From Betaproteobacteria bacterium RIFCSPLOWO2_02_64_14 (lineage in GTDB: Bacteria > Pseudomonadota > Gammaproteobacteria > Burkholderiales > SG8-41): a DNA stretch of 59,388 bases. The notes below the pieces were generated by a model. The model saw nothing but the letters and a program-made list of their open reading frames with translations, had not been told where the DNA came from and did no database searches. Shown here one piece after another: positions 1,918 to 59,388 of this stretch (position 1 is the stretch's first letter; each line of letters starts with the position of its first letter). Both the position numbers and the translations under genes were made by a program. Location: contig MEQT01000085.1 of NCBI GenBank assembly GCA_001770325.1, positions 3,801 to 63,188 on the forward strand, given 5' to 3'.

Positions 1918-2029
1918 GGTGAACAGTGAACAGCGAACAGAATGCGGTCAAAGGCGTGAGCCGTGATCCGTGATCCGATGGGAAATCGGACCGGATTTGT
2001 CGGTTCACGGCTCACGAATCGCGGATCAC
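1918..2029. repeat. Heptamer tandem arrays with inverted arms (array A)
   Basis: GGTGAAC AGTGAAC AGCGAAC AGAATGC (1918-1945). GTGAGCC GTGATCC GTGATCC (1956-1976). The inverted set is GGTTCAC GGCTCAC GAATCGC GGATCAC (2002-2029). The last unit contains the iclR-family stop codon (TGA on the minus strand, 2026-2028). Confidence 0.9.
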
Positions 2030-54263: not shown

Positions 54264-55601
54264 ATGGATACCTCGCGGCTTAACTGGCTCTCGGCGGCGG
54301 ACATGGCGCGCGCGGTGCGCGACGGCGCAATAAGCGCAGTGGAACTGGCGGAGGCGTGTCTTGCGAGGGTGCGGGAAGTCGATGCCGAAGTACAGGCCTG
54401 GGCCTACCTGGATCCGGAACACGTGCTCAGACAGGCACACGTGCTCGACGACCAACGCCGGCATGGCATGGCAGCCGGCCCGCTGCACGGGGTGCCGGTC
54501 GGGATAAAGGACATCATCGACACCGCCGACATGCCGACTGAGGACGGAACGGTGCTGCACGCCGGTCGCATGCCCGACAACGATGCGACGGTGGTGTCGT
54601 GGCTCCGGGCTGCCGGCGCGGTCATCATGGGCAAGACCGTCACCACGGAGCTCGCCACTTACTCACCGGGCAAGACGCGTAATCCGCACGACCCGGGGCA
54701 CACTCCCGGCGGCTCATCGAGCGGCTCAGCGGCCGCCGTCGCGGCCGGAATGGTGCCGCTCGCGATCGGCAGCCAGACCAACGGCTCGGTGATCCGGCCC
54801 GCTGCGTTCTGCGGCGTGTACGGCTTCAAGCCGACGCACGGACTCGTGCCGCGCCACGGCGTGCTCAGGCAGTCGCGGACGCTCGATCAGCTCGGCGTGT
54901 TCGCGCGCACCATCGAGGACGTGGCTCTCGTAACCGAGCAGCTTGTCGGTTACGACGGGCGCGACCCGGACACGCGGCCTCGTGCGCGATTTCCCTTTGC
55001 GTCCGTGGCTGCGGATGAGCCACCGCTCCCACCGTTGCTTGCATTCGCGAAATCGCCGATCTGGGAGCGCGCCGAGGAGGAAACGAAAGAGGCGCTGGCG
55101 GAACTGACTGCGGAACTTGGCGACCGTGTCGAAGAGCTTGACCTTGGAGACGCGGCACGCGAAGCATGGGACTGGCACCGAACCATCATGGAAGCAGAGA
55201 TGGCGGCGAGCTTCGACCTTGAATGGGAAAAGGGGCGCGACCGCCTTTCGGACTCGCTCCGGAACCAGCTTGCACGCGGACGGGAAGTCCGGGCCCTCGA
55301 CTATCAGAAAGCGCTGGCTCGTATCCCGCTGCTCAACGACGGTTTCGAGGAGATCTTTCTGCGCTACGATGCGATCCTTACGCCCGCTGCAGCGGGCACG
55401 GCGCCGGAAGGTCTCGGATCGACGGGCGACCCGGCATTCTGCACGCTGTGGACGCTCGCCGGGATGCCGGCGCTCAATCTGCCGCTGATGCGCGGCGCGA
55501 ATGGCCTGCCGCTCGGCGTCCAGCTTGTCGGCGAGCGGGGAAGCGACGCACGCCTGCTGCGCACCGCGCGCTGGCTCGTGGCGCATGTCGCAGCGAGCTG
55601 A
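54264..55601 (+). CDS. Amidase (amidase-signature family)
   Basis: GVPVGIKDIIDTADMPT ... GKTVTTELA ... PGGSSSGSAAAVAAGMVPLAIGSQTNGSVIRPAAFCGVYGFKPT (AS sequence with a Ser-cisSer-Lys context). Confidence 0.9.
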   Translation: MDTSRLNWLSAADMARAVRDGAISAVELAEACLARVREVDAEVQAWAYLDPEHVLRQAHVLDDQRRHGMAAGPLHGVPVGIKDIIDTADMPTEDGTVLHAGRMPDNDATVVSWLRAAGAVIMGKTVTTELATYSPGKTRNPHDPGHTPGGSSSGSAAAVAAGMVPLAIGSQTNGSVIRPAAFCGVYGFKPTHGLVPRHGVLRQSRTLDQLGVFARTIEDVALVTEQLVGYDGRDPDTRPRARFPFASVAADEPPLPPLLAFAKSPIWERAEEETKEALAELTAELGDRVEELDLGDAAREAWDWHRTIMEAEMAASFDLEWEKGRDRLSDSLRNQLARGREVRALDYQKALARIPLLNDGFEEIFLRYDAILTPAAAGTAPEGLGSTGDPAFCTLWTLAGMPALNLPLMRGANGLPLGVQLVGERGSDARLLRTARWLVAHVAAS

Positions 55602-55621
55602 TACGGGAACAGGAGAGCGAT

Positions 55622-55789
55622 ATGCCATTTAAGATCTTCGCGGGTGTCGTCGCAGTGCTGCTACTCGTCAGTTTCGTCATGCCGTATGTGCTGAAGATGA
55701 AGGACATCGCGCTCGCGGTCGTCGTCATGATCGGCGTTTCGATGATGGCTGTCGACCTCTGGCAGTCGCTGAAATCGAAAGAGGACTGA
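55622..55789 (+). CDS. Small (55-aa) two-helix membrane protein, function unknown
   Basis: MPFKIFAGVVAVLLLVSFVMPYVLKMKDIALAVVVMIGVSMMAVDLWQSLKSKED. AGGAGA RBS 6 nt upstream. Extracted from the longer tracked ORF 55223..55789. Confidence 0.55.
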   Translation: MPFKIFAGVVAVLLLVSFVMPYVLKMKDIALAVVVMIGVSMMAVDLWQSLKSKED

Positions 55790-55881
55790 CCGCAATCGGC
55801 GGCGCATCCGCGCGCGAGCAAGGCGCGGCACCCGGCGCCTCCGGCTGATTCAGCACCGTTATCGAGAGGGTCACGAGTCCT

Positions 55882-57144
55882 GTGCCGGCCGCCGCACCCA
55901 GCCTGAGGTGGCTGGTATTCGCTCTCGGCGCAGCGGCGTTCTTCCTGTCGTTTTTTCACCGCGTTGCCCCGGGCGCGCTCGCGGAGGAGCTCACCGCCTC
56001 CTTCGCGGTGAGCGGCGCAACACTCGGTGCGCTCGCGGCAACGTATTTCTACGTGTATTCGGCGATGCAAGTGCCGACCGGTGTGCTGGTCGACACGCTG
56101 GGTCCGCGGCGCGTGCTGACTGCGGGAGGCGTCATCGCAGGCGTAGGTTCGATCATATTTGGCGGGGCCGAATCCGTCGTGACTGCCGCGCTTGGACGCA
56201 CGTTGACGGGACTGGGGGTATCCGTCGCCTTCGTCTGCCTGCTCAAACTCAACGCGAGCTGGTTCGAGGAGCGGCGCTTCGCCACAATGAGCGGCTTCGG
56301 CAACGTCATGGGAATCGTGGGCGCGCTGCTGGCAACCGCCCCGCTCGCGTGGCTCATCACGGTGGTGTCGTGGCGCAGCGTATTCGTGGCAATCGGCATT
56401 GCGTCCCTCGGGGTGTCCGCCGCGACGTGGTTCCTGGTGCGCGACCATCCGGAATGCGAAGGGTTGCCTCAGGGACGTCCGGCGCCACCGCAGACCGAAC
56501 GGTGGTGGCAGGGCCTCGGAGAAATCATGCGCAACCGGGCGACATGGCCCGCCTTCTGGGTCACGTTCGGCATCTCGGGGAGCTATATGAGTTTCATCGG
56601 GCTGTGGGCCGCGCCGTTTTTTCGACAGGCTTACGGCATGTCGGCGATCGCGGCGAACCGGCACACGAGCGTCATGATCGTAGCGTCGGCGATCTCGCTT
56701 GCCACGCTGGGCGTGTTGTCTGACCATCTGCGCCGCCGCCGCCTCCTGATCACCGGATCCGCCATGATGTATCTCGGCTGCTGGGCGTCCTGGTTCACCG
56801 GCATCGCTCCGGGCCACACCTATCTCATGGCGGCTATCACCGGTCTGTGCATGACCGGCTTTTCGCTGGCATGGGCCTGCGCGAAGGAGGTCAATCGTCC
56901 GCGCTACGCCGGGATGGCCATCAGCGTGGCCAACACCGGCGGTTTTCTCGCTGCCGGCATCCTGCAGCCGCTCGTAGGCTGGGTGCTGGATGCGAGCGCC
57001 GGCGGCGTGGCGAATGCCACGACCCTGGACCATTTTCGACCCGCACTTGCCACCCTCGCGTCGTTTACCTTCATCGGGTTCGCCGGCTCGCTGTTTATCC
57101 GCGAGACGCATTGTCGTAACATTTGGGTGGAGAACGGGCGGTAA
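55882..57144 (+). CDS. MFS transporter
   Basis: 12 predicted TM segments. DTLGPRRVL-type loop 2-3 motif. GTG start. Confidence 0.85.
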   Translation: MPAAAPSLRWLVFALGAAAFFLSFFHRVAPGALAEELTASFAVSGATLGALAATYFYVYSAMQVPTGVLVDTLGPRRVLTAGGVIAGVGSIIFGGAESVVTAALGRTLTGLGVSVAFVCLLKLNASWFEERRFATMSGFGNVMGIVGALLATAPLAWLITVVSWRSVFVAIGIASLGVSAATWFLVRDHPECEGLPQGRPAPPQTERWWQGLGEIMRNRATWPAFWVTFGISGSYMSFIGLWAAPFFRQAYGMSAIAANRHTSVMIVASAISLATLGVLSDHLRRRRLLITGSAMMYLGCWASWFTGIAPGHTYLMAAITGLCMTGFSLAWACAKEVNRPRYAGMAISVANTGGFLAAGILQPLVGWVLDASAGGVANATTLDHFRPALATLASFTFIGFAGSLFIRETHCRNIWVENGR

Positions 57145-57242
57145 GCAGTGAGCAGTGAGCAGTGAGCGGTAAGCAGTAAGCGGTAAGCGGTAAGCGGTGA
57201 GTGGTGAACGGTGAATGGTGAACGGTGAATGGTGAACGGTGG
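57138..57242 (+). repeat. Heptamer array F, 15 consecutive units (longest in the window)
   Basis: GCGGTAA GCAGTGA x3 GCGGTAA GCAGTAA GCGGTAA x2 GCGGTGA GTGGTGA ACGGTGA ATGGTGA ACGGTGA ATGGTGA ACGGTGG. The first unit contains the MFS stop codon TAA (57142-57144). Confidence 0.95.
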
Positions 57243-57281
57243 ATGGCCTGGCGCATTGACGTATTCCAATCAAGGTAGAGA

Positions 57282-58277
57282 ATGAAACCAAAGATACTGG
57301 TTACGCGGGAGGTATTCGACGAGACGCTCGCATACCTCGCGCAGGCCTGCGAAGTCGAGTCCAACCAGAACGACGCGGCGCTGACGCCCGAAGCCCTCAG
57401 GCAGCGGCTGCGCGACAAGCGTGGCGTCATGTGCTGCCTCACCGACCGTATCGATGCCGCGCTGCTCGCGGAGGCGCAGCAGCTTAAGGTGGTCGCGAAC
57501 ATTGCGGTGGGTTATAACAACATCGACGTGGCGGCGTGCACCGCCCGCGGCGTGATGGCGACCAACACGCCCGGCGTTCTCGATGACAGCACCGCGGACC
57601 TCGCCTGGGCGTTGATGCTCGCCGCTGCGCGGCGGCTGACCGAGGTCGAAAGTTACATCCGCGGCGGTGAGTGGACCGGCTGGCGGTTGAAACAATGGCT
57701 GGGTGTGGATGTGCATCACGCCACGCTCGGCATCGTCGGCATGGGACGCATCGGGCAGGTCATCGCCAGGCGCGCAGCGGGTTTCGACATGCGCGTCGTC
57801 TATCACAACCGGAACCGGCTCGCGCCCGACATCGAGCAGCGGCTCAACGCCGCCTATGTCACGAAGGACGAACTTCTCCGGCAATCCGACTTCGTGGTGC
57901 TGCAGGTGCCGTATTCTCCGGAAACGCACCATCTCATCGGGGCGGCGGATCTGAAGCGCATGAAGCCGACCGCGATACTGGTCAATTCCACGCGCGGCGG
58001 CGTGGTCGACGATGCCGCGCTGGTCGACGCCCTGAAAGCCGGCACGATCCGCGCCGCAGGCCTCGACGTATTCGAGAACGAGCCCCGCCTTCATCCCGGA
58101 TTCCTTGGCCTGCGCAACGTGGTGCTCGCGCCCCATGTCGGTAGTTCGACCGAAGCGACGCGCCGTGCGATGGCGATGACGGCGGCGAAGAACCTGGTTG
58201 CGGCGCTCGCTGGCGCAACGCCACCCAATCTCCTGAACCCCGAATCACGAGCCACGAGTCACGAGCCACGTACGTGA
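57282..58277 (+). CDS. D-isomer-specific 2-hydroxyacid dehydrogenase (glyoxylate/hydroxypyruvate/2-ketogluconate reductase-like)
   Basis: GIVGMGRIGQVIARRA (NAD fold), ILVNSTRGGVVDDAAL, GLDVFENEP, VLAPHVGSST. Confidence 0.9.
   Translation: MKPKILVTREVFDETLAYLAQACEVESNQNDAALTPEALRQRLRDKRGVMCCLTDRIDAALLAEAQQLKVVANIAVGYNNIDVAACTARGVMATNTPGVLDDSTADLAWALMLAAARRLTEVESYIRGGEWTGWRLKQWLGVDVHHATLGIVGMGRIGQVIARRAAGFDMRVVYHNRNRLAPDIEQRLNAAYVTKDELLRQSDFVVLQVPYSPETHHLIGAADLKRMKPTAILVNSTRGGVVDDAALVDALKAGTIRAAGLDVFENEPRLHPGFLGLRNVVLAPHVGSSTEATRRAMAMTAAKNLVAALAGATPPNLLNPESRATSHEPRT
58246..58273 (+). repeat. Heptamer array G inside the last codons of the dehydrogenase gene
   Basis: CACGAGC CACGAGT CACGAGC CACGTAC encodes the tail ...SRATSHEPRT and ends 1 nt before the stop codon (58275-58277). 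Confidence 0.85.
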
Positions 58278-58287
58278 GGCACGCGCA

Positions 58288-59187
58288 ATGAAACTCGGAT
58301 TCATCGGTCTTGGCGTCATGGGACGCCCGATGGCGTTGAATCTCATGAAGCACGGGCACGAAATGGGTGTCTACGCGCGGCGCGCGGAGGCGGTGGCCCC
58401 GCTCGTGGCGGCGGGCGCGGTGCGCTACGCGACGCCGGCGGAGCTTGCTCCGAATGCGGAGATCACGTTCACCATGGTCACGAATTCGCGCGATGTCGAG
58501 GAGGTGGTGCTCGGCGAGCAGGGCGTGATACACGGCGCGCGTGAGGGCAGCGTGCTGGTCGATATGGAGACGATTTCGCCGGCGGTGGCGCGCGCTGTCG
58601 CAGCGGCCCTCGAGGCGAAAGGGATCGCCATGCTCGATGCGCCGGTATCCGGCGGGCCGATGGGCGCCGCGCAGGCCACGCTCTCGATCATGGCGGGCGG
58701 CAAGGCGGAAGTTTTCGAGCGAGTGAAGCCGCTCCTCGCGTGCATGGGCAAGACGATCTTGCACATGGGTGCGAGCGGCGCCGGACAGATTACCAAGGCG
58801 TGCAATCAGCTTGCCTTGCTGGTGAATGCCCAGGGAACGGCCGAAGCGATGACGCTGGCGCATGCCTGCGGTCTCGATCCCGCCAGGGTGCGCGAGGTGC
58901 TGCTCGGCGGGGTTGCGGCGAGCCGGGTGCTCGAACTCTTCGGCGAGCGCATGGTCACGCGCGATTTCTCCGCCGGCATCGAGGCGCGCCTCTATCACAA
59001 GGATCTTCACATCGCGCTTGGTCTCGCGCATGAGGCCGGCCTCGCGCATGAGGCCGGCCTCGCGGTGCCTGCTGCGGCCCTCACCATGCAGAGCGTCAAC
59101 GCCCTGATCGGACGAGGGGAGGGCGGGAGCGATCTTTCCGCCTTGATCAAAGTGGTGGAGGGCATGCGAATGCGGAATGCGGAATGA
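58288..59187 (+). CDS. NAD(P)-dependent 3-hydroxyacid dehydrogenase family (2-hydroxy-3-oxopropionate/tartronate semialdehyde reductase-like)
   Basis: MKLGFIGLGVMGRPMALNL, DAPVSGG, KACNQL, KDLHIAL are HIBADH/GarR-family motifs. Confidence 0.85.
   Translation: MKLGFIGLGVMGRPMALNLMKHGHEMGVYARRAEAVAPLVAAGAVRYATPAELAPNAEITFTMVTNSRDVEEVVLGEQGVIHGAREGSVLVDMETISPAVARAVAAALEAKGIAMLDAPVSGGPMGAAQATLSIMAGGKAEVFERVKPLLACMGKTILHMGASGAGQITKACNQLALLVNAQGTAEAMTLAHACGLDPARVREVLLGGVAASRVLELFGERMVTRDFSAGIEARLYHKDLHIALGLAHEAGLAHEAGLAVPAAALTMQSVNALIGRGEGGSDLSALIKVVEGMRMRNAE
59023..59064 (+). repeat. Perfect 18-bp in-frame tandem duplication (CTCGCGCATGAGGCCGGC x2 + CTCGCG)
   Basis: Encodes LAHEAG-LAHEAG-LA within the reductase. 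The copies at 59023-59040 and 59041-59058 are identical. Confidence 0.95.
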
Positions 59188-59265
59188 TGAATGCGGAACA
59201 AATGTTGACGGACGCAGTACTCGATTCATTATTCATCATTCCGCGTTCATCATTCATCATTCGAA
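59161..59265. repeat. Heptamer array H: GAATGNN units, spacer, and inverted ATTCATN units (long hairpin)
   Basis: GAATGCG GAATGCG GAATGAT GAATGCG (59168-59195; the reductase stop TGA is at 59185-59187). Inverted ATTCATT ATTCATC ATTCCGC GTTCATC ATTCATC ATTCGAA (59224-59265). 59182-59198 pairs with 59239-59255 over 17 bp with one G-U position. Confidence 0.9.
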
Positions 59266-59275
59266 TGGGCCATCC

Positions 59276-59388
59276 ATGAGCTTCACCACCATCGACCAAG
59301 CCACCCCCCGCCTTCAACGCTCGGAGCTGGCCGTGCCGGCCTCGACGACGGCACTGTTCGAGAAGGCGGCGTACTCAGCCGCGGATGT
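59276..59388 (+). CDS. HpcH/HpaI aldolase-citrate lyase beta family, malyl-CoA lyase-like; first 37 codons plus a partial codon (runs off the right edge)
   Basis: Hand translation gives MSFTTIDQATPRLQRSELAVPASTTALFEKAAYSAADV. This resembles remembered Mcl N-termini (MSF..I.QATPRL.RSELAVPGS...F.EK.A.S.ADV). Not in the ORF track (no stop). Confidence 0.5.
   Translation, partial: MSFTTIDQATPRLQRSELAVPASTTALFEKAAYSAAD

What the first reader, a model, noticed from the sequence alone, without database searches (positions are those of the whole stretch)
57138..57242. Fifteen-unit heptamer array between the MFS gene and the 2-hydroxyacid dehydrogenase gene
The array is 105 nt of uninterrupted period-7 repeat. 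The consensus drifts along its length: GCAGTGA -> GCGGTAA -> GCGGTGA -> (A/G)(C/T)GGTGA. This gradient is what stepwise slippage or duplication with mutation would produce. The MFS stop TAA is inside unit 1. Every unit but the last carries TGA or TAA. There is no inverted partner, so this one is not a hairpin. GG dinucleotides recur every 7 nt in the right half (weak two-tetrad G4 potential). It ends 40 nt before the next start codon, so it occupies the space where that gene's promoter or UTR must be. Spurious ORFs on both strands translate it into heptad-like peptides (…FTIHRSPFTVHHSPLTAYR…).
Basis: seen in the sequence. Interest (0 to 1): 0.55.

Follow-up and report, generated by a model that had tools for sequence, protein, structure and literature searches.

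The report
Hypervariable stop-anchored heptamer repeat array
The 105-base stretch is a real seven-base tandem repeat that grew out of the transporter gene's stop codon and changes copy number between near-identical strains, but it is one of about 260 such repeats in this genome and belongs to a class already described in other bacteria.

Summary
Window 57138-57242 holds 15 head-to-tail heptamers, and the MFS stop codon (TAA, 57142-57144) lies in unit 1. The array has no inverted partner, no RNA structure beyond chance and no G-quadruplex potential.

Five independent assemblies of this junction carry 15, 13, 11, 10 and 10 units, every length difference is a multiple of 7, and one 10-unit locus has flanks 99.3-99.8% identical to this genome. 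More distant relatives have no array: there the MFS stop and the dehydrogenase start overlap (ATGA) or lie 15-27 nt apart.

The array is not unique. This 3.9-Mb uncultured Burkholderiales genome has 262 period-7 arrays, and no other period comes close. Their units form a loose TGA-R-S-R-N family. Arrays cluster on stop codons with the TGA strand as sense, and neighbouring arrays always pair purine arm first. Genus-mates range from about 300 pattern matches to none, and that range tracks whether this junction carries an array.

The same pattern is published for Xanthomonas and Nostoc (Rehm 2015), and heptamer excess for Burkholderia (Mrazek 2007).

Verdict: a slippage-generated, probably near-neutral simple sequence repeat inside an operon. 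It is a new member of a known kind and of modest interest.

The parts
55882..57144 (+). MFS transporter gene. Its last four coding bases and its stop codon form unit 1 of the array.
   Evidence: ORF list; Pfam MFS_1, E 1.3e-39
57138..57242 (+). The heptamer array: 15 units with the purine/TGA-bearing strand as the sense strand. Its period-14 substructure indicates slippage steps of two units.
   Evidence: copy number 15/13/11/10/10 across assemblies
57142..57144 (+). MFS stop codon TAA inside unit 1. Copy-number change downstream of it cannot alter the MFS protein.
   Evidence: the stop also lies in the first unit in L002, L004, L011 and L101-L103
57243..57281 (+). Unique 39-nt segment between the array and the dehydrogenase start, carrying a Shine-Dalgarno-like AAGG/GAG stretch. 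It is nearly invariant among the five assemblies, so the geometry between ribosome-binding site and ATG does not depend on copy number.
   Evidence: The promoter-like hit at 57256-57283 overlaps the ATG and cannot serve this gene.
57282..58277 (+). D-isomer-specific 2-hydroxyacid dehydrogenase gene, the downstream cistron
   Evidence: Pfam 2-Hacid_dh_C, E 3.1e-59, and 2-Hacid_dh, E 7.1e-31
58241..58270 (+). A second heptamer array of the same family, in the stop-free orientation, lying inside the last codons of the dehydrogenase gene
59164..59262 (.). Family context: a convergent pair of heptamer arrays. The purine arm (59164-59198) holds the next gene's stop codon and the pyrimidine arm is at 59224-59262.

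Best explanation
The array is a heptanucleotide simple sequence repeat generated and kept in flux by replication slippage. It was seeded by the terminal heptamer of the MFS gene (last coding bases plus stop codon) at what was originally a tightly coupled MFS-dehydrogenase junction within an operon.

Shown: it is a true period-7 array; copy number changes in steps of 7 or 14 nt between near-identical strains; the edges are stable and the interior turns over; relatives without the array have overlapping or closely spaced genes; the genome holds about 260 such arrays, and whether this junction carries an array tracks each genome's overall load.

Inferred: units are gained and lost by slipped-strand mispairing, sometimes two units at a time. 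G/A transitions arise in single units and are then copied into blocks, which produces the apparent gradient. The array persists because it sits at the one place in the operon where changes of 7 nt are invisible: the first unit already ends the MFS protein, TGA or TAA recurs in all three frames, and the dehydrogenase keeps its own ribosome-binding site in a unique 39-nt segment. The array is transcribed as an intercistronic spacer. Its main consequence is loss of the ancestral stop/start coupling, not a dedicated function. Why seven bases and why this lineage remain unexplained, as they do in the literature.
For: - Array statistics: lag-7 identity 0.85, and 83/98 matches against at most 49 in shuffles. 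TRF reports periods 7 and 14.
- Polymorphism: 15 units here, 13 in G007 (flanks 96%), 11 in L101, 10 in L102, and 10 in L103 (flanks 99.3-99.8%). Distances from the left flank to the ATG context are 165, 151, 137, 130 and 130 nt, all differing by multiples of 7.
- Ancestral state: six family-level relatives have spacers of 15-27 nt measured from the end of the protein alignment, and read in frame their MFS stop overlaps the dehydrogenase start. Four of ten more distant syntenic loci have the ATGA overlap.
- Graded series at the same junction: a remnant of about 3 units (G008), 4 units (G003), about 11 (G002), then 10-15.
- Genome-wide trait: 213 period-7 arrays with at least 4 copies, against at most 14 for any other period, and 262 merged arrays.
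- Stop anchoring: 88 of 258 arrays start within -40 to +10 nt of the stop of the gene reading into them, against about 14 expected. 98 of 262 start within -60 to +15 nt.
- Trans-acting or genome-wide cause: counts of the five-TGA pattern in the genus are 302, 277, 195, 115, 49, 38, 1, 0 and 0. The genomes with units at this junction are the rich ones, and G001 and G006 (0 matches) have no array there.
- No sign of a structured or catalogued element: fold z = 0.19, no inverted partner, no Rfam match, no terminator in the spacer.
- Literature: heptanucleotide repeats are the most abundant long-SSR class, Burkholderia is among the richest, and polymerase slippage was proposed (Mrazek 2007 as summarised in PMC4679880). 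The same positional pattern and length variation occur in Xanthomonas and Nostoc, and no function was found (PMC4692102).
Against: - Unit sequences are far from random, which pure slippage of arbitrary sequence does not predict. 79% carry TGA on exactly one strand, against 18% of random intergenic heptamers. Arrays are 49% GC against 62% for intergenic DNA, and are strongly purine/pyrimidine asymmetric.
- The orientation rules are strict: stop-proximal arrays are sense in 67/79 cases, start-proximal arrays are antisense in 74/106, and opposed pairs are 33 purine-then-pyrimidine against 0 the reverse. These may reflect seeding at stop codons plus selection on reading frames, but a sequence-specific process or function is not excluded.
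- An array has persisted or recurred at this junction across genus-level divergence (MFS C-terminus only about 57% identical in G002).
- Neutrality is inferred. No expression data exist for this uncultured organism.
- Gene calls used for the genome-wide statistics came from my own crude codon-usage caller. Start positions are approximate, and the <=15 nt distances to starts are partly produced by my start re-assignment.
- Copy numbers come from short-read metagenome assemblies, which can collapse repeats.
Confidence: 0.8

Rival explanations
1. The array is a functional intercistronic element. As part of the mRNA it sets the level of dehydrogenase translation relative to the MFS gene, for example by uncoupling re-initiation, by presenting repeated GGUGA Shine-Dalgarno-like motifs as ribosome standby or pause sites, or by binding a protein once per seven nucleotides. 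Copy-number change would tune that level.
For: The array replaces an ancestral overlapping stop/start junction, so coupling must have changed. The non-random TGA-R-S-R-N unit family and the strict orientation rules hint at constraint. An array recurs at this junction in several diverged genus-mates. MacGregor 2015 proposed translational regulation for TAACTGA heptamers and notes that cold-shock proteins bind one heptamer each.
Against: Copy number differs by 50% between strains with flanks over 99% identical, which argues against a tuned length. In spacers between co-oriented genes, arrays are about equally often sense and antisense (61 against 49), so no single RNA-level reading fits the family. 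No HutP or CsrA homologue is found in this genome, which is 90.8% complete. Genus-mates with no arrays at all run the same operon with overlapping genes. Rehm 2015 found no regulatory role for the analogous repeats.
Confidence: 0.1
2. The array is the surviving half of a convergent heptamer-array pair, an imperfect long hairpin spanning the spacer from stop to start like the one at 59164-59262, whose pyrimidine arm has decayed. Any role it had would have been that of the hairpin.
For: About a third of arrays (88 of 262) sit in pairs, and 33 of the 34 pairs with both orientations called have the purine arm first, next to the stop, as this array does. The same window has two such pairs. Rehm 2015 reports 70-75 convergent pairs per Xanthomonas genome.
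Against: No complementary arm is detectable between 57243 and 57281 or anywhere within 56800-57600, and the fold is no better than shuffles. None of the five assemblies or the genus-mates with arrays at this junction shows a partner arm made of heptamers.
Confidence: 0.05
3. The array is a phase-variation (contingency) switch. Slippage changes promoter spacing or reading frame and so turns a flanking gene on and off.
For: The array is hypervariable in copy number, which is the defining mechanism of contingency loci.
Against: The array lies after the MFS stop and 39 nt before the dehydrogenase start, so no reading frame is affected. No promoter elements flank it, and the only promoter-like hit lies downstream of it and overlaps the ATG. 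The flanking genes are a transporter and a metabolic dehydrogenase, not surface or restriction genes. With about 260 arrays at metabolic genes genome-wide, the pattern does not fit. Rehm 2015 reached the same conclusion for Xanthomonas.
Confidence: 0.03
4. The array is a non-B DNA or RNA element (G-quadruplex or triplex) that acts through its structure, like the G4-forming GGGAATC repeats of Xanthomonas.
For: GG recurs every 7 nt in most units and the strands are purine/pyrimidine asymmetric. The related published repeats form G4 in vitro.
Against: There is no run of three G. A G-quadruplex-aware fold finds none. The purine strand is interrupted by T and C in every unit, so it is not a triplex-type mirror homopurine tract. 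Most unit families in this genome lack G-runs.
Confidence: 0.02

Closest known systems
Heptameric intergenic repeats of Xanthomonas (GGGAATC) and Nostoc (GGGGA(C/T)T), Rehm et al. 2015, PMC4692102
   Same: Seven-base tandem units, hundreds per genome, about 90% intergenic and mostly between co-oriented genes. They lie within 50 bp of the stop codon, or overlapping it, on the coding strand, and on the non-coding strand upstream of starts. They form convergent inverted pairs. Length and sequence vary between close relatives. They are not tied to surface genes and no function was found. All of these hold in this genome.
   Different: Here there is no single unit but a loose family (56 canonical classes, consensus TGA-R-S-R-N). 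There are no G3 tracts and so no G4 potential. The lineage is different, an uncultured Burkholderiales genus. This particular array is solo, not paired.
Long simple sequence repeats with 5-11 nt units (LSSR5-11), Mrazek, Guo and Shah 2007, as summarised in PMC4679880
   Same: The heptanucleotide class is the most abundant. These repeats occur in free-living bacteria with larger genomes, with Burkholderia among the richest. They are attributed to a general tendency to expand by polymerase slippage rather than to function. This genome shows the same dominance of period 7.
   Different: I could not read the original paper, so I cannot say whether stop-codon anchoring or TGA phasing was noted there.
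TAACTGA direct repeats of marine Beggiatoaceae, cyanobacteria and Bacteroidetes, MacGregor 2015, PMC4679880
   Same: Intergenic heptamer tandem repeats whose unit carries stop triplets (TAA and TGA), with 169-265 sets per genome and often no canonical ribosome-binding site nearby.
   Different: Those are one fixed unit, mostly 2-6 copies, placed just upstream of start codons in forward orientation, with horizontal spread suspected. Here the units are diverse, the array has 15 copies and it is anchored on a stop codon.
Cyanobacterial STRR heptanucleotide repeats (Calothrix PCC 7601), cited in Rehm 2015; the unit sequences are from my own memory and were not checked
   Same: Tandemly amplified heptanucleotides in intergenic DNA with no known function.
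   Different: A few fixed units in heterocystous cyanobacteria. No stop-anchoring is known to me.
Phase-variable contingency loci (1-5 nt repeats in Haemophilus, Neisseria and Moraxella)
   Same: Slipped-strand mispairing changes copy number at high rate.
   Different: Those repeats lie inside reading frames or between promoter elements of surface or restriction genes and switch expression. This array lies after a stop codon in a metabolic operon and cannot shift a frame.

Membership tests
Heptanucleotide simple sequence repeat (LSSR5-11 class) | Head-to-tail iteration of one short unit, longer than chance allows | tested here: met
   15 units; 83/98 lag-7 matches against at most 49 in 100 shuffles; TRF scores 73-90
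Heptanucleotide simple sequence repeat (LSSR5-11 class) | Copy number varies between related genomes in whole units | tested here: met
   15/13/11/10/10 units; all length differences multiples of 7; flanks up to 99.8% identical
Heptanucleotide simple sequence repeat (LSSR5-11 class) | Genome-wide excess of period 7 over other periods | tested here: met
   213 arrays with at least 4 copies at period 7, against at most 14 at any other period
Xanthomonas/Nostoc-type intergenic heptamer repeats (Rehm 2015) | Located within 50 bp of, or overlapping, the stop codon, with the G/purine-rich strand as coding strand | tested here: met
   The stop codon is in unit 1. Genome-wide, 67/79 stop-proximal arrays are sense.
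Xanthomonas/Nostoc-type intergenic heptamer repeats (Rehm 2015) | Frequent convergent inverted pairs | tested here: inconclusive
   Met for the genome (33 convergent pairs, 0 divergent) but not for this array, which has no partner
Xanthomonas/Nostoc-type intergenic heptamer repeats (Rehm 2015) | G3-4 tracts able to form G-quadruplexes | tested here: not met
   No GGG run; a G-quadruplex-aware fold finds none
Phase-variation contingency locus | Repeat lies within a reading frame or between the -35 and -10 promoter elements, so that unit changes switch expression | tested here: not met
   The array lies after the stop and 39 nt before the next ATG. No promoter-like site spans it.
REP/MITE-like palindromic element or intrinsic terminator | Stable stem-loop (plus a T-run for a terminator) | tested here: not met
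   Fold z = 0.19; no inverted repeat involving the array; no terminator-like site in 57144-57282
Known structured RNA family (Rfam) | Match to a covariance model | tested here: not met
   Only a chance miRNA hit elsewhere, E 0.98

The most novel reading that the evidence does not exclude
The heptamer arrays of this lineage, this one included, are not passive slippage debris. They would be the product of a lineage-specific, sequence-selective process that builds and maintains TGA-phased arrays outward from stop codons, always with the purine arm first in pairs. Candidates are a replication or repair factor, or a protein that binds single-stranded nucleic acid once per seven nucleotides. The arrays would then act as all-frame translational insulators or hairpin spacers between cistrons. 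The on/off distribution within one genus (about 300 pattern matches in some species, none in others) would make the responsible factor findable by comparative genomics. That would address the open question of why seven-base repeats dominate in many bacteria.
Probability: 0.1. Interest if true: 0.65.

Novelty: new member of a known kind. Interest (0 to 1): 0.3.

Why it matters
For this locus, very little: the array probably only loosens the coupling of two operon genes. It does have practical uses. It is a ready-made strain-typing marker for an uncultured groundwater and soil Burkholderiales lineage. It also warns annotators, because arrays of this kind create false ORFs, false N-terminal extensions and odd C-terminal tails.

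The wider value is comparative. One genus contains species with hundreds of stop-anchored heptamer arrays and species with none, while all five genomes checked (array-rich and array-free) carry an intact MutS-family gene and Pol I 5'-nuclease. That contrast is a clean natural experiment for asking what makes seven-base repeats expand. The question has been open since Mrazek 2007 and was not resolved by Rehm 2015.

Tried and rejected
- **Structured RNA:** the Rfam scan of 56500-59388 gave nothing, and the RNA fold is no better than shuffles.
- **Hairpin partner:** none found.
- **G-quadruplex:** no G3 runs, and none predicted.
- **Promoter in or after the array:** there is only a 9/12 match whose second hexamer ends on the start codon, so it was rejected as this gene's promoter.
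- **Terminator in the spacer:** none.
- **Mismatch-repair loss as the cause:** MutS is intact (open frames of 876-899 aa) in array-rich G000, G007 and G079 and in array-free G001.
- **Flap-nuclease difference:** one Pol I 5'-nuclease domain in each of the five genomes.
- **Periodic RNA-binding readers:** no HutP and no CsrA in this genome, which is 90.8% complete, so absence is not proven.
- **Orientation relative to transcription as a simple rule:** rejected, at 61 sense against 49 antisense in co-oriented spacers. The rule that holds is position-dependent: sense at stops, antisense at starts.
- **Not attempted:** orientation relative to replication (the genome is in 304 contigs with no origin known), and a gene presence/absence comparison of array-rich and array-free genus-mates (only the window's own genome can be laid out for scripts).
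- **Unpublished genomes:** G014 and G050 were flagged as unpublished. No specific claim rests on them. G050 contributes only one genome to the 52-of-151 tally, and G014 only a dehydrogenase hit at a contig edge.
Full report
**1. The observation**

Window 57138-57242 is an uninterrupted array of 15 seven-base units. Tandem Repeats Finder reports it at period 7 and, in both halves, at period 14 with 87-94% matches. Identity at lag 7 is 0.85, against 0.18-0.28 at other lags. 83 of 98 positions match at lag 7, the highest value anywhere in the window, and 100 shuffles of the window never exceeded 49.

14 of 15 units carry TGA or TAA. The upstream ORF (55882-57144, Pfam MFS_1, E 1.3e-39) ends with TAA at 57142-57144, inside unit 1. 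The downstream ORF (57282-58277, D-2-hydroxyacid dehydrogenase domains, E 3.1e-59 and 7.1e-31) starts 39 nt after the array.

**2. What the array is not**

- There is no inverted partner within 56800-57600.
- The RNA fold of 57120-57290 is no better than shuffles (z = 0.19).
- There is no Rfam match.
- No terminator-like site lies in the spacer. The only promoter-like site (57256-57283) has its second hexamer on the start codon, so it cannot drive this gene.

**3.

A scan of metagenome contigs with the 24-nt left flank found three further assemblies.

| Locus | Units | Flank identity to this genome |
|---|---|---|
| This genome | 15 | - |
| G007 (L002) | 13 | about 96% |
| L101 | 11 | right flank 100%, left flank 91.5% |
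| L102 | 10 | 95% and 99.6% |
| L103 | 10 | 99.3-99.8% |

The distance from the left flank to the ATG context is 165, 151, 137, 130 and 130 nt, so all differences are multiples of 7. The first three units are the same in all five loci (the first four in four of them) and the 39-nt segment after the array is nearly invariant, while the interior order of unit variants differs. This is the signature of slipped-strand gain and loss within a repeat. The period-14 substructure and the 14-nt differences indicate that two units can move at once. Copy numbers come from short-read assemblies, which could collapse repeats, but five assemblies with clean flanks and whole-unit differences make an artefact unlikely.

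**4. History of the junction**

- Six relatives of the same family have no array. Their spacer measured from the end of the protein alignment is 15-27 nt, and read in frame the MFS stop overlaps the dehydrogenase start (ATGA, or TGATG in one).
- Among ten more distant syntenic loci, four have the ATGA overlap and only the G007 record has the array.
- The ancestral state is therefore a translationally coupled operon junction.
- Genus-mates show a graded series at the same place: a remnant of about 3 units in G008, 4 units in G003, about 11 units of a CCGGTGA/TCAGTGA variant in G002, and 10-15 units in this species cluster. A genome of another genus (G019) has a period-8 array there.
- In every case the first unit contains the MFS stop. 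I infer that the terminal heptamer (last coding bases plus stop) was the seed and that the array grew downstream from it.

**5. The array is one of a genome-wide family**

The genome has 3.94 Mb in 304 contigs, is 64% GC, and is a metagenome-assembled genome of an uncultured Burkholderiales/Betaproteobacteria lineage by the titles of its nearest records.

- It has 267 TRF rows at period 7. There are 213 arrays with at least 4 copies at period 7, against at most 14 for any other period. Merging gives 262 arrays, with median length 31 nt and eight of 100 nt or more.
- Units fall into 56 canonical classes but share a template. 79% carry TGA on exactly one strand, against 18% of random intergenic heptamers. 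Arrays are 49% GC against 62% for intergenic DNA, and are strongly purine/pyrimidine asymmetric.
- Phased on TGA, the consensus is T-G-A-(A/G)-(G/C)-(A/G)-N. The finding's units are typical members.

**6. Positional rules**

I called genes with a crude codon-usage caller of my own. Stop positions are reliable, but start positions are approximate.

- 88 of 258 arrays begin within -40 to +10 nt of the stop codon of the gene reading into them, against about 14 expected for random intergenic placement. 48 of them contain the stop. 98 of 262 begin within -60 to +15 nt, often with the gene's TGA in phase with the repeat.
- Most arrays first scored as genic lie in the 5' extension of a longest-ORF call (45 of 82) or at the stop (17 of 82).
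- Arrays nearest a stop have the purine/TGA strand as sense in 67 of 79 cases. Arrays nearest a start are antisense in 74 of 106. Their small distances to starts are partly produced by my start re-assignment.
- Neighbouring arrays form 33 pairs reading purine arm then pyrimidine arm, none the reverse, and one co-oriented pair. 88 of 262 arrays are in pairs.
- The same window shows a convergent pair at 59164-59262, another starting at 1919, and an array inside the last codons of the dehydrogenase gene at 58241-58270.

The finding's array obeys the rules as a solo, sense, stop-anchored member.

**7. Distribution among relatives**

A pattern of five TGAs at period 7 matches 52 of 151 genomes sampled across the order, very unevenly. 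Within the genus the counts are 302 (G007), 277 (G003), 195 (G008), 115 (this genome), 49 (G002, 73% complete), 38 (G005), 1 (G004), 0 (G006) and 0 (G001, 100% complete).

The genomes with units at the MFS-dehydrogenase junction are the rich ones, and G001 and G006 have none there. So the state of this locus follows a genome-wide propensity, which argues against selection specific to this locus. MutS is intact in rich and poor genomes alike, each has one Pol I 5'-nuclease domain, and no HutP or CsrA homologue is found in this genome. The cause of the propensity is unknown.

**8. Comparison with what is known**

- MacGregor 2015 (PMC4679880) summarises Mrazek et al. 2007: among long repeats with 5-11 nt units, heptanucleotides are the most abundant class in most genomes, four Burkholderia species are among the ten richest, and slippage linked to the polymerase footprint was proposed.
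- Rehm et al. 2015 (PMC4692102) describe GGGAATC repeats in Xanthomonas and GGGGA(C/T)T repeats in Nostoc. They are about 90% intergenic and mostly between co-oriented ORFs. They lie within 50 bp of the stop or overlapping it on the coding strand, and upstream of ORFs on the non-coding strand. They form 70-75 convergent pairs per genome and vary in length between close species. The authors judged a phase-variation role unlikely and could identify no regulatory role.
- Every one of those features is reproduced here. The differences are the diverse TGA-phased unit family, the lack of G4 potential and the lineage.

I therefore file the finding as a new member of a known kind.

**9. Mechanism and confidence**

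Shown:
- A real period-7 array.
- Whole-unit copy-number change between near-identical strains.
- Stable edges and a variable interior.
- An ancestral coupled junction.
- Membership of a genome-wide, lineage-specific family.

Inferred:
- Replication slippage is the generator.
- The stop-containing heptamer was the seed.
- Variant blocks arise by copying of point mutations.
- The array is tolerated because the first unit ends the MFS protein and the dehydrogenase keeps its own ribosome-binding segment.
- The array is transcribed as an intercistronic spacer.
- The main effect is loss of stop/start coupling.

I put 0.8 on this package. The SSR and polymorphism part is close to certain. The near-neutrality part is about 0.65-0.7, because the non-random unit family and the strict orientation rules are not fully explained by slippage alone. 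Rivals are a tuning element for downstream translation (0.10), a decayed half of a convergent pair (0.05), a phase-variation switch (0.03) and a non-B structure (0.02).

**10. Caveats**

- The organism is uncultured, so no expression or read-level data were available.
- Gene calls are my own approximation.
- Two genomes in the comparative tallies are unpublished (G014, G050), and no specific claim rests on them.
- Earlier first-reader notes from this scan had already flagged stop-anchored heptamer arrays and opposed pairs in this window and elsewhere in this genome. I treated them as leads, and my genome-wide counts agree with them.

Noticed in passing
window 58241-58270: A heptamer array (units like CGAGCCA/CGAGTCA, the stop-free orientation of the same family) lies inside the last ten or so codons of the 2-hydroxyacid dehydrogenase gene. 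The protein's C-terminal tail is therefore repeat-encoded, and the stop follows at 58275-58277.
   Followed up: partly
window 59164-59198 and 59224-59262: A convergent pair of heptamer arrays fills the next intergenic spacer. The purine arm contains the stop codon of the 58288-59187 gene, and the pyrimidine arm ends shortly before the next gene. It is one of 33 such pairs in the genome, all with the purine arm first.
   Followed up: partly
window 1919-2029: Another opposed set of heptamer arrays (GTGAACA/GTGATCC units followed by their reverse complements) lies between two minus-strand genes.
   Followed up: no
L101 against window 55600-57200: Metagenome contig L101 is identical to the window on both sides (54782-55400 and 57400-58400), but the MFS gene between them is about 8% diverged. 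The diverged patch ends at the heptamer array, which suggests a recombination tract bounded by the repeat.
   Followed up: partly
window 59023-59064: A perfect 18-nt tandem repeat (2.3 copies, in frame) lies inside the 58288-59187 reductase gene. The 59000-59200 bin, which also holds the 59164 heptamer array, carries 22 mismatches or gaps in L101 and L103 against the window, so one or both repeats also vary between strains.
   Followed up: no
L007 (G019), MFS-dehydrogenase junction: A genome of another genus has a period-8 array (about five GTGAACGG-like units) at the same junction, so the stop-anchored repeat there is not strictly limited to seven bases.
   Followed up: no
genus-mates G001, G004, G006 against G003, G007, G008: Within one genus, species carry either hundreds of matches to the five-TGA period-7 pattern or essentially none (302, 277, 195 against 0, 1, 0). 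All five genomes checked (G000, G001, G007, G079, G129) have a MutS-family match and one Pol I 5'-nuclease domain. This is a sharp natural contrast for finding what drives heptamer expansion.
   Followed up: partly
window 55474-57291, minus strand: A 605-aa open frame runs antisense through the whole MFS gene and the array. It is a shadow ORF typical of high-GC DNA, extended by the stop-free strand of the repeat, and could mislead automatic annotation.
   Followed up: no
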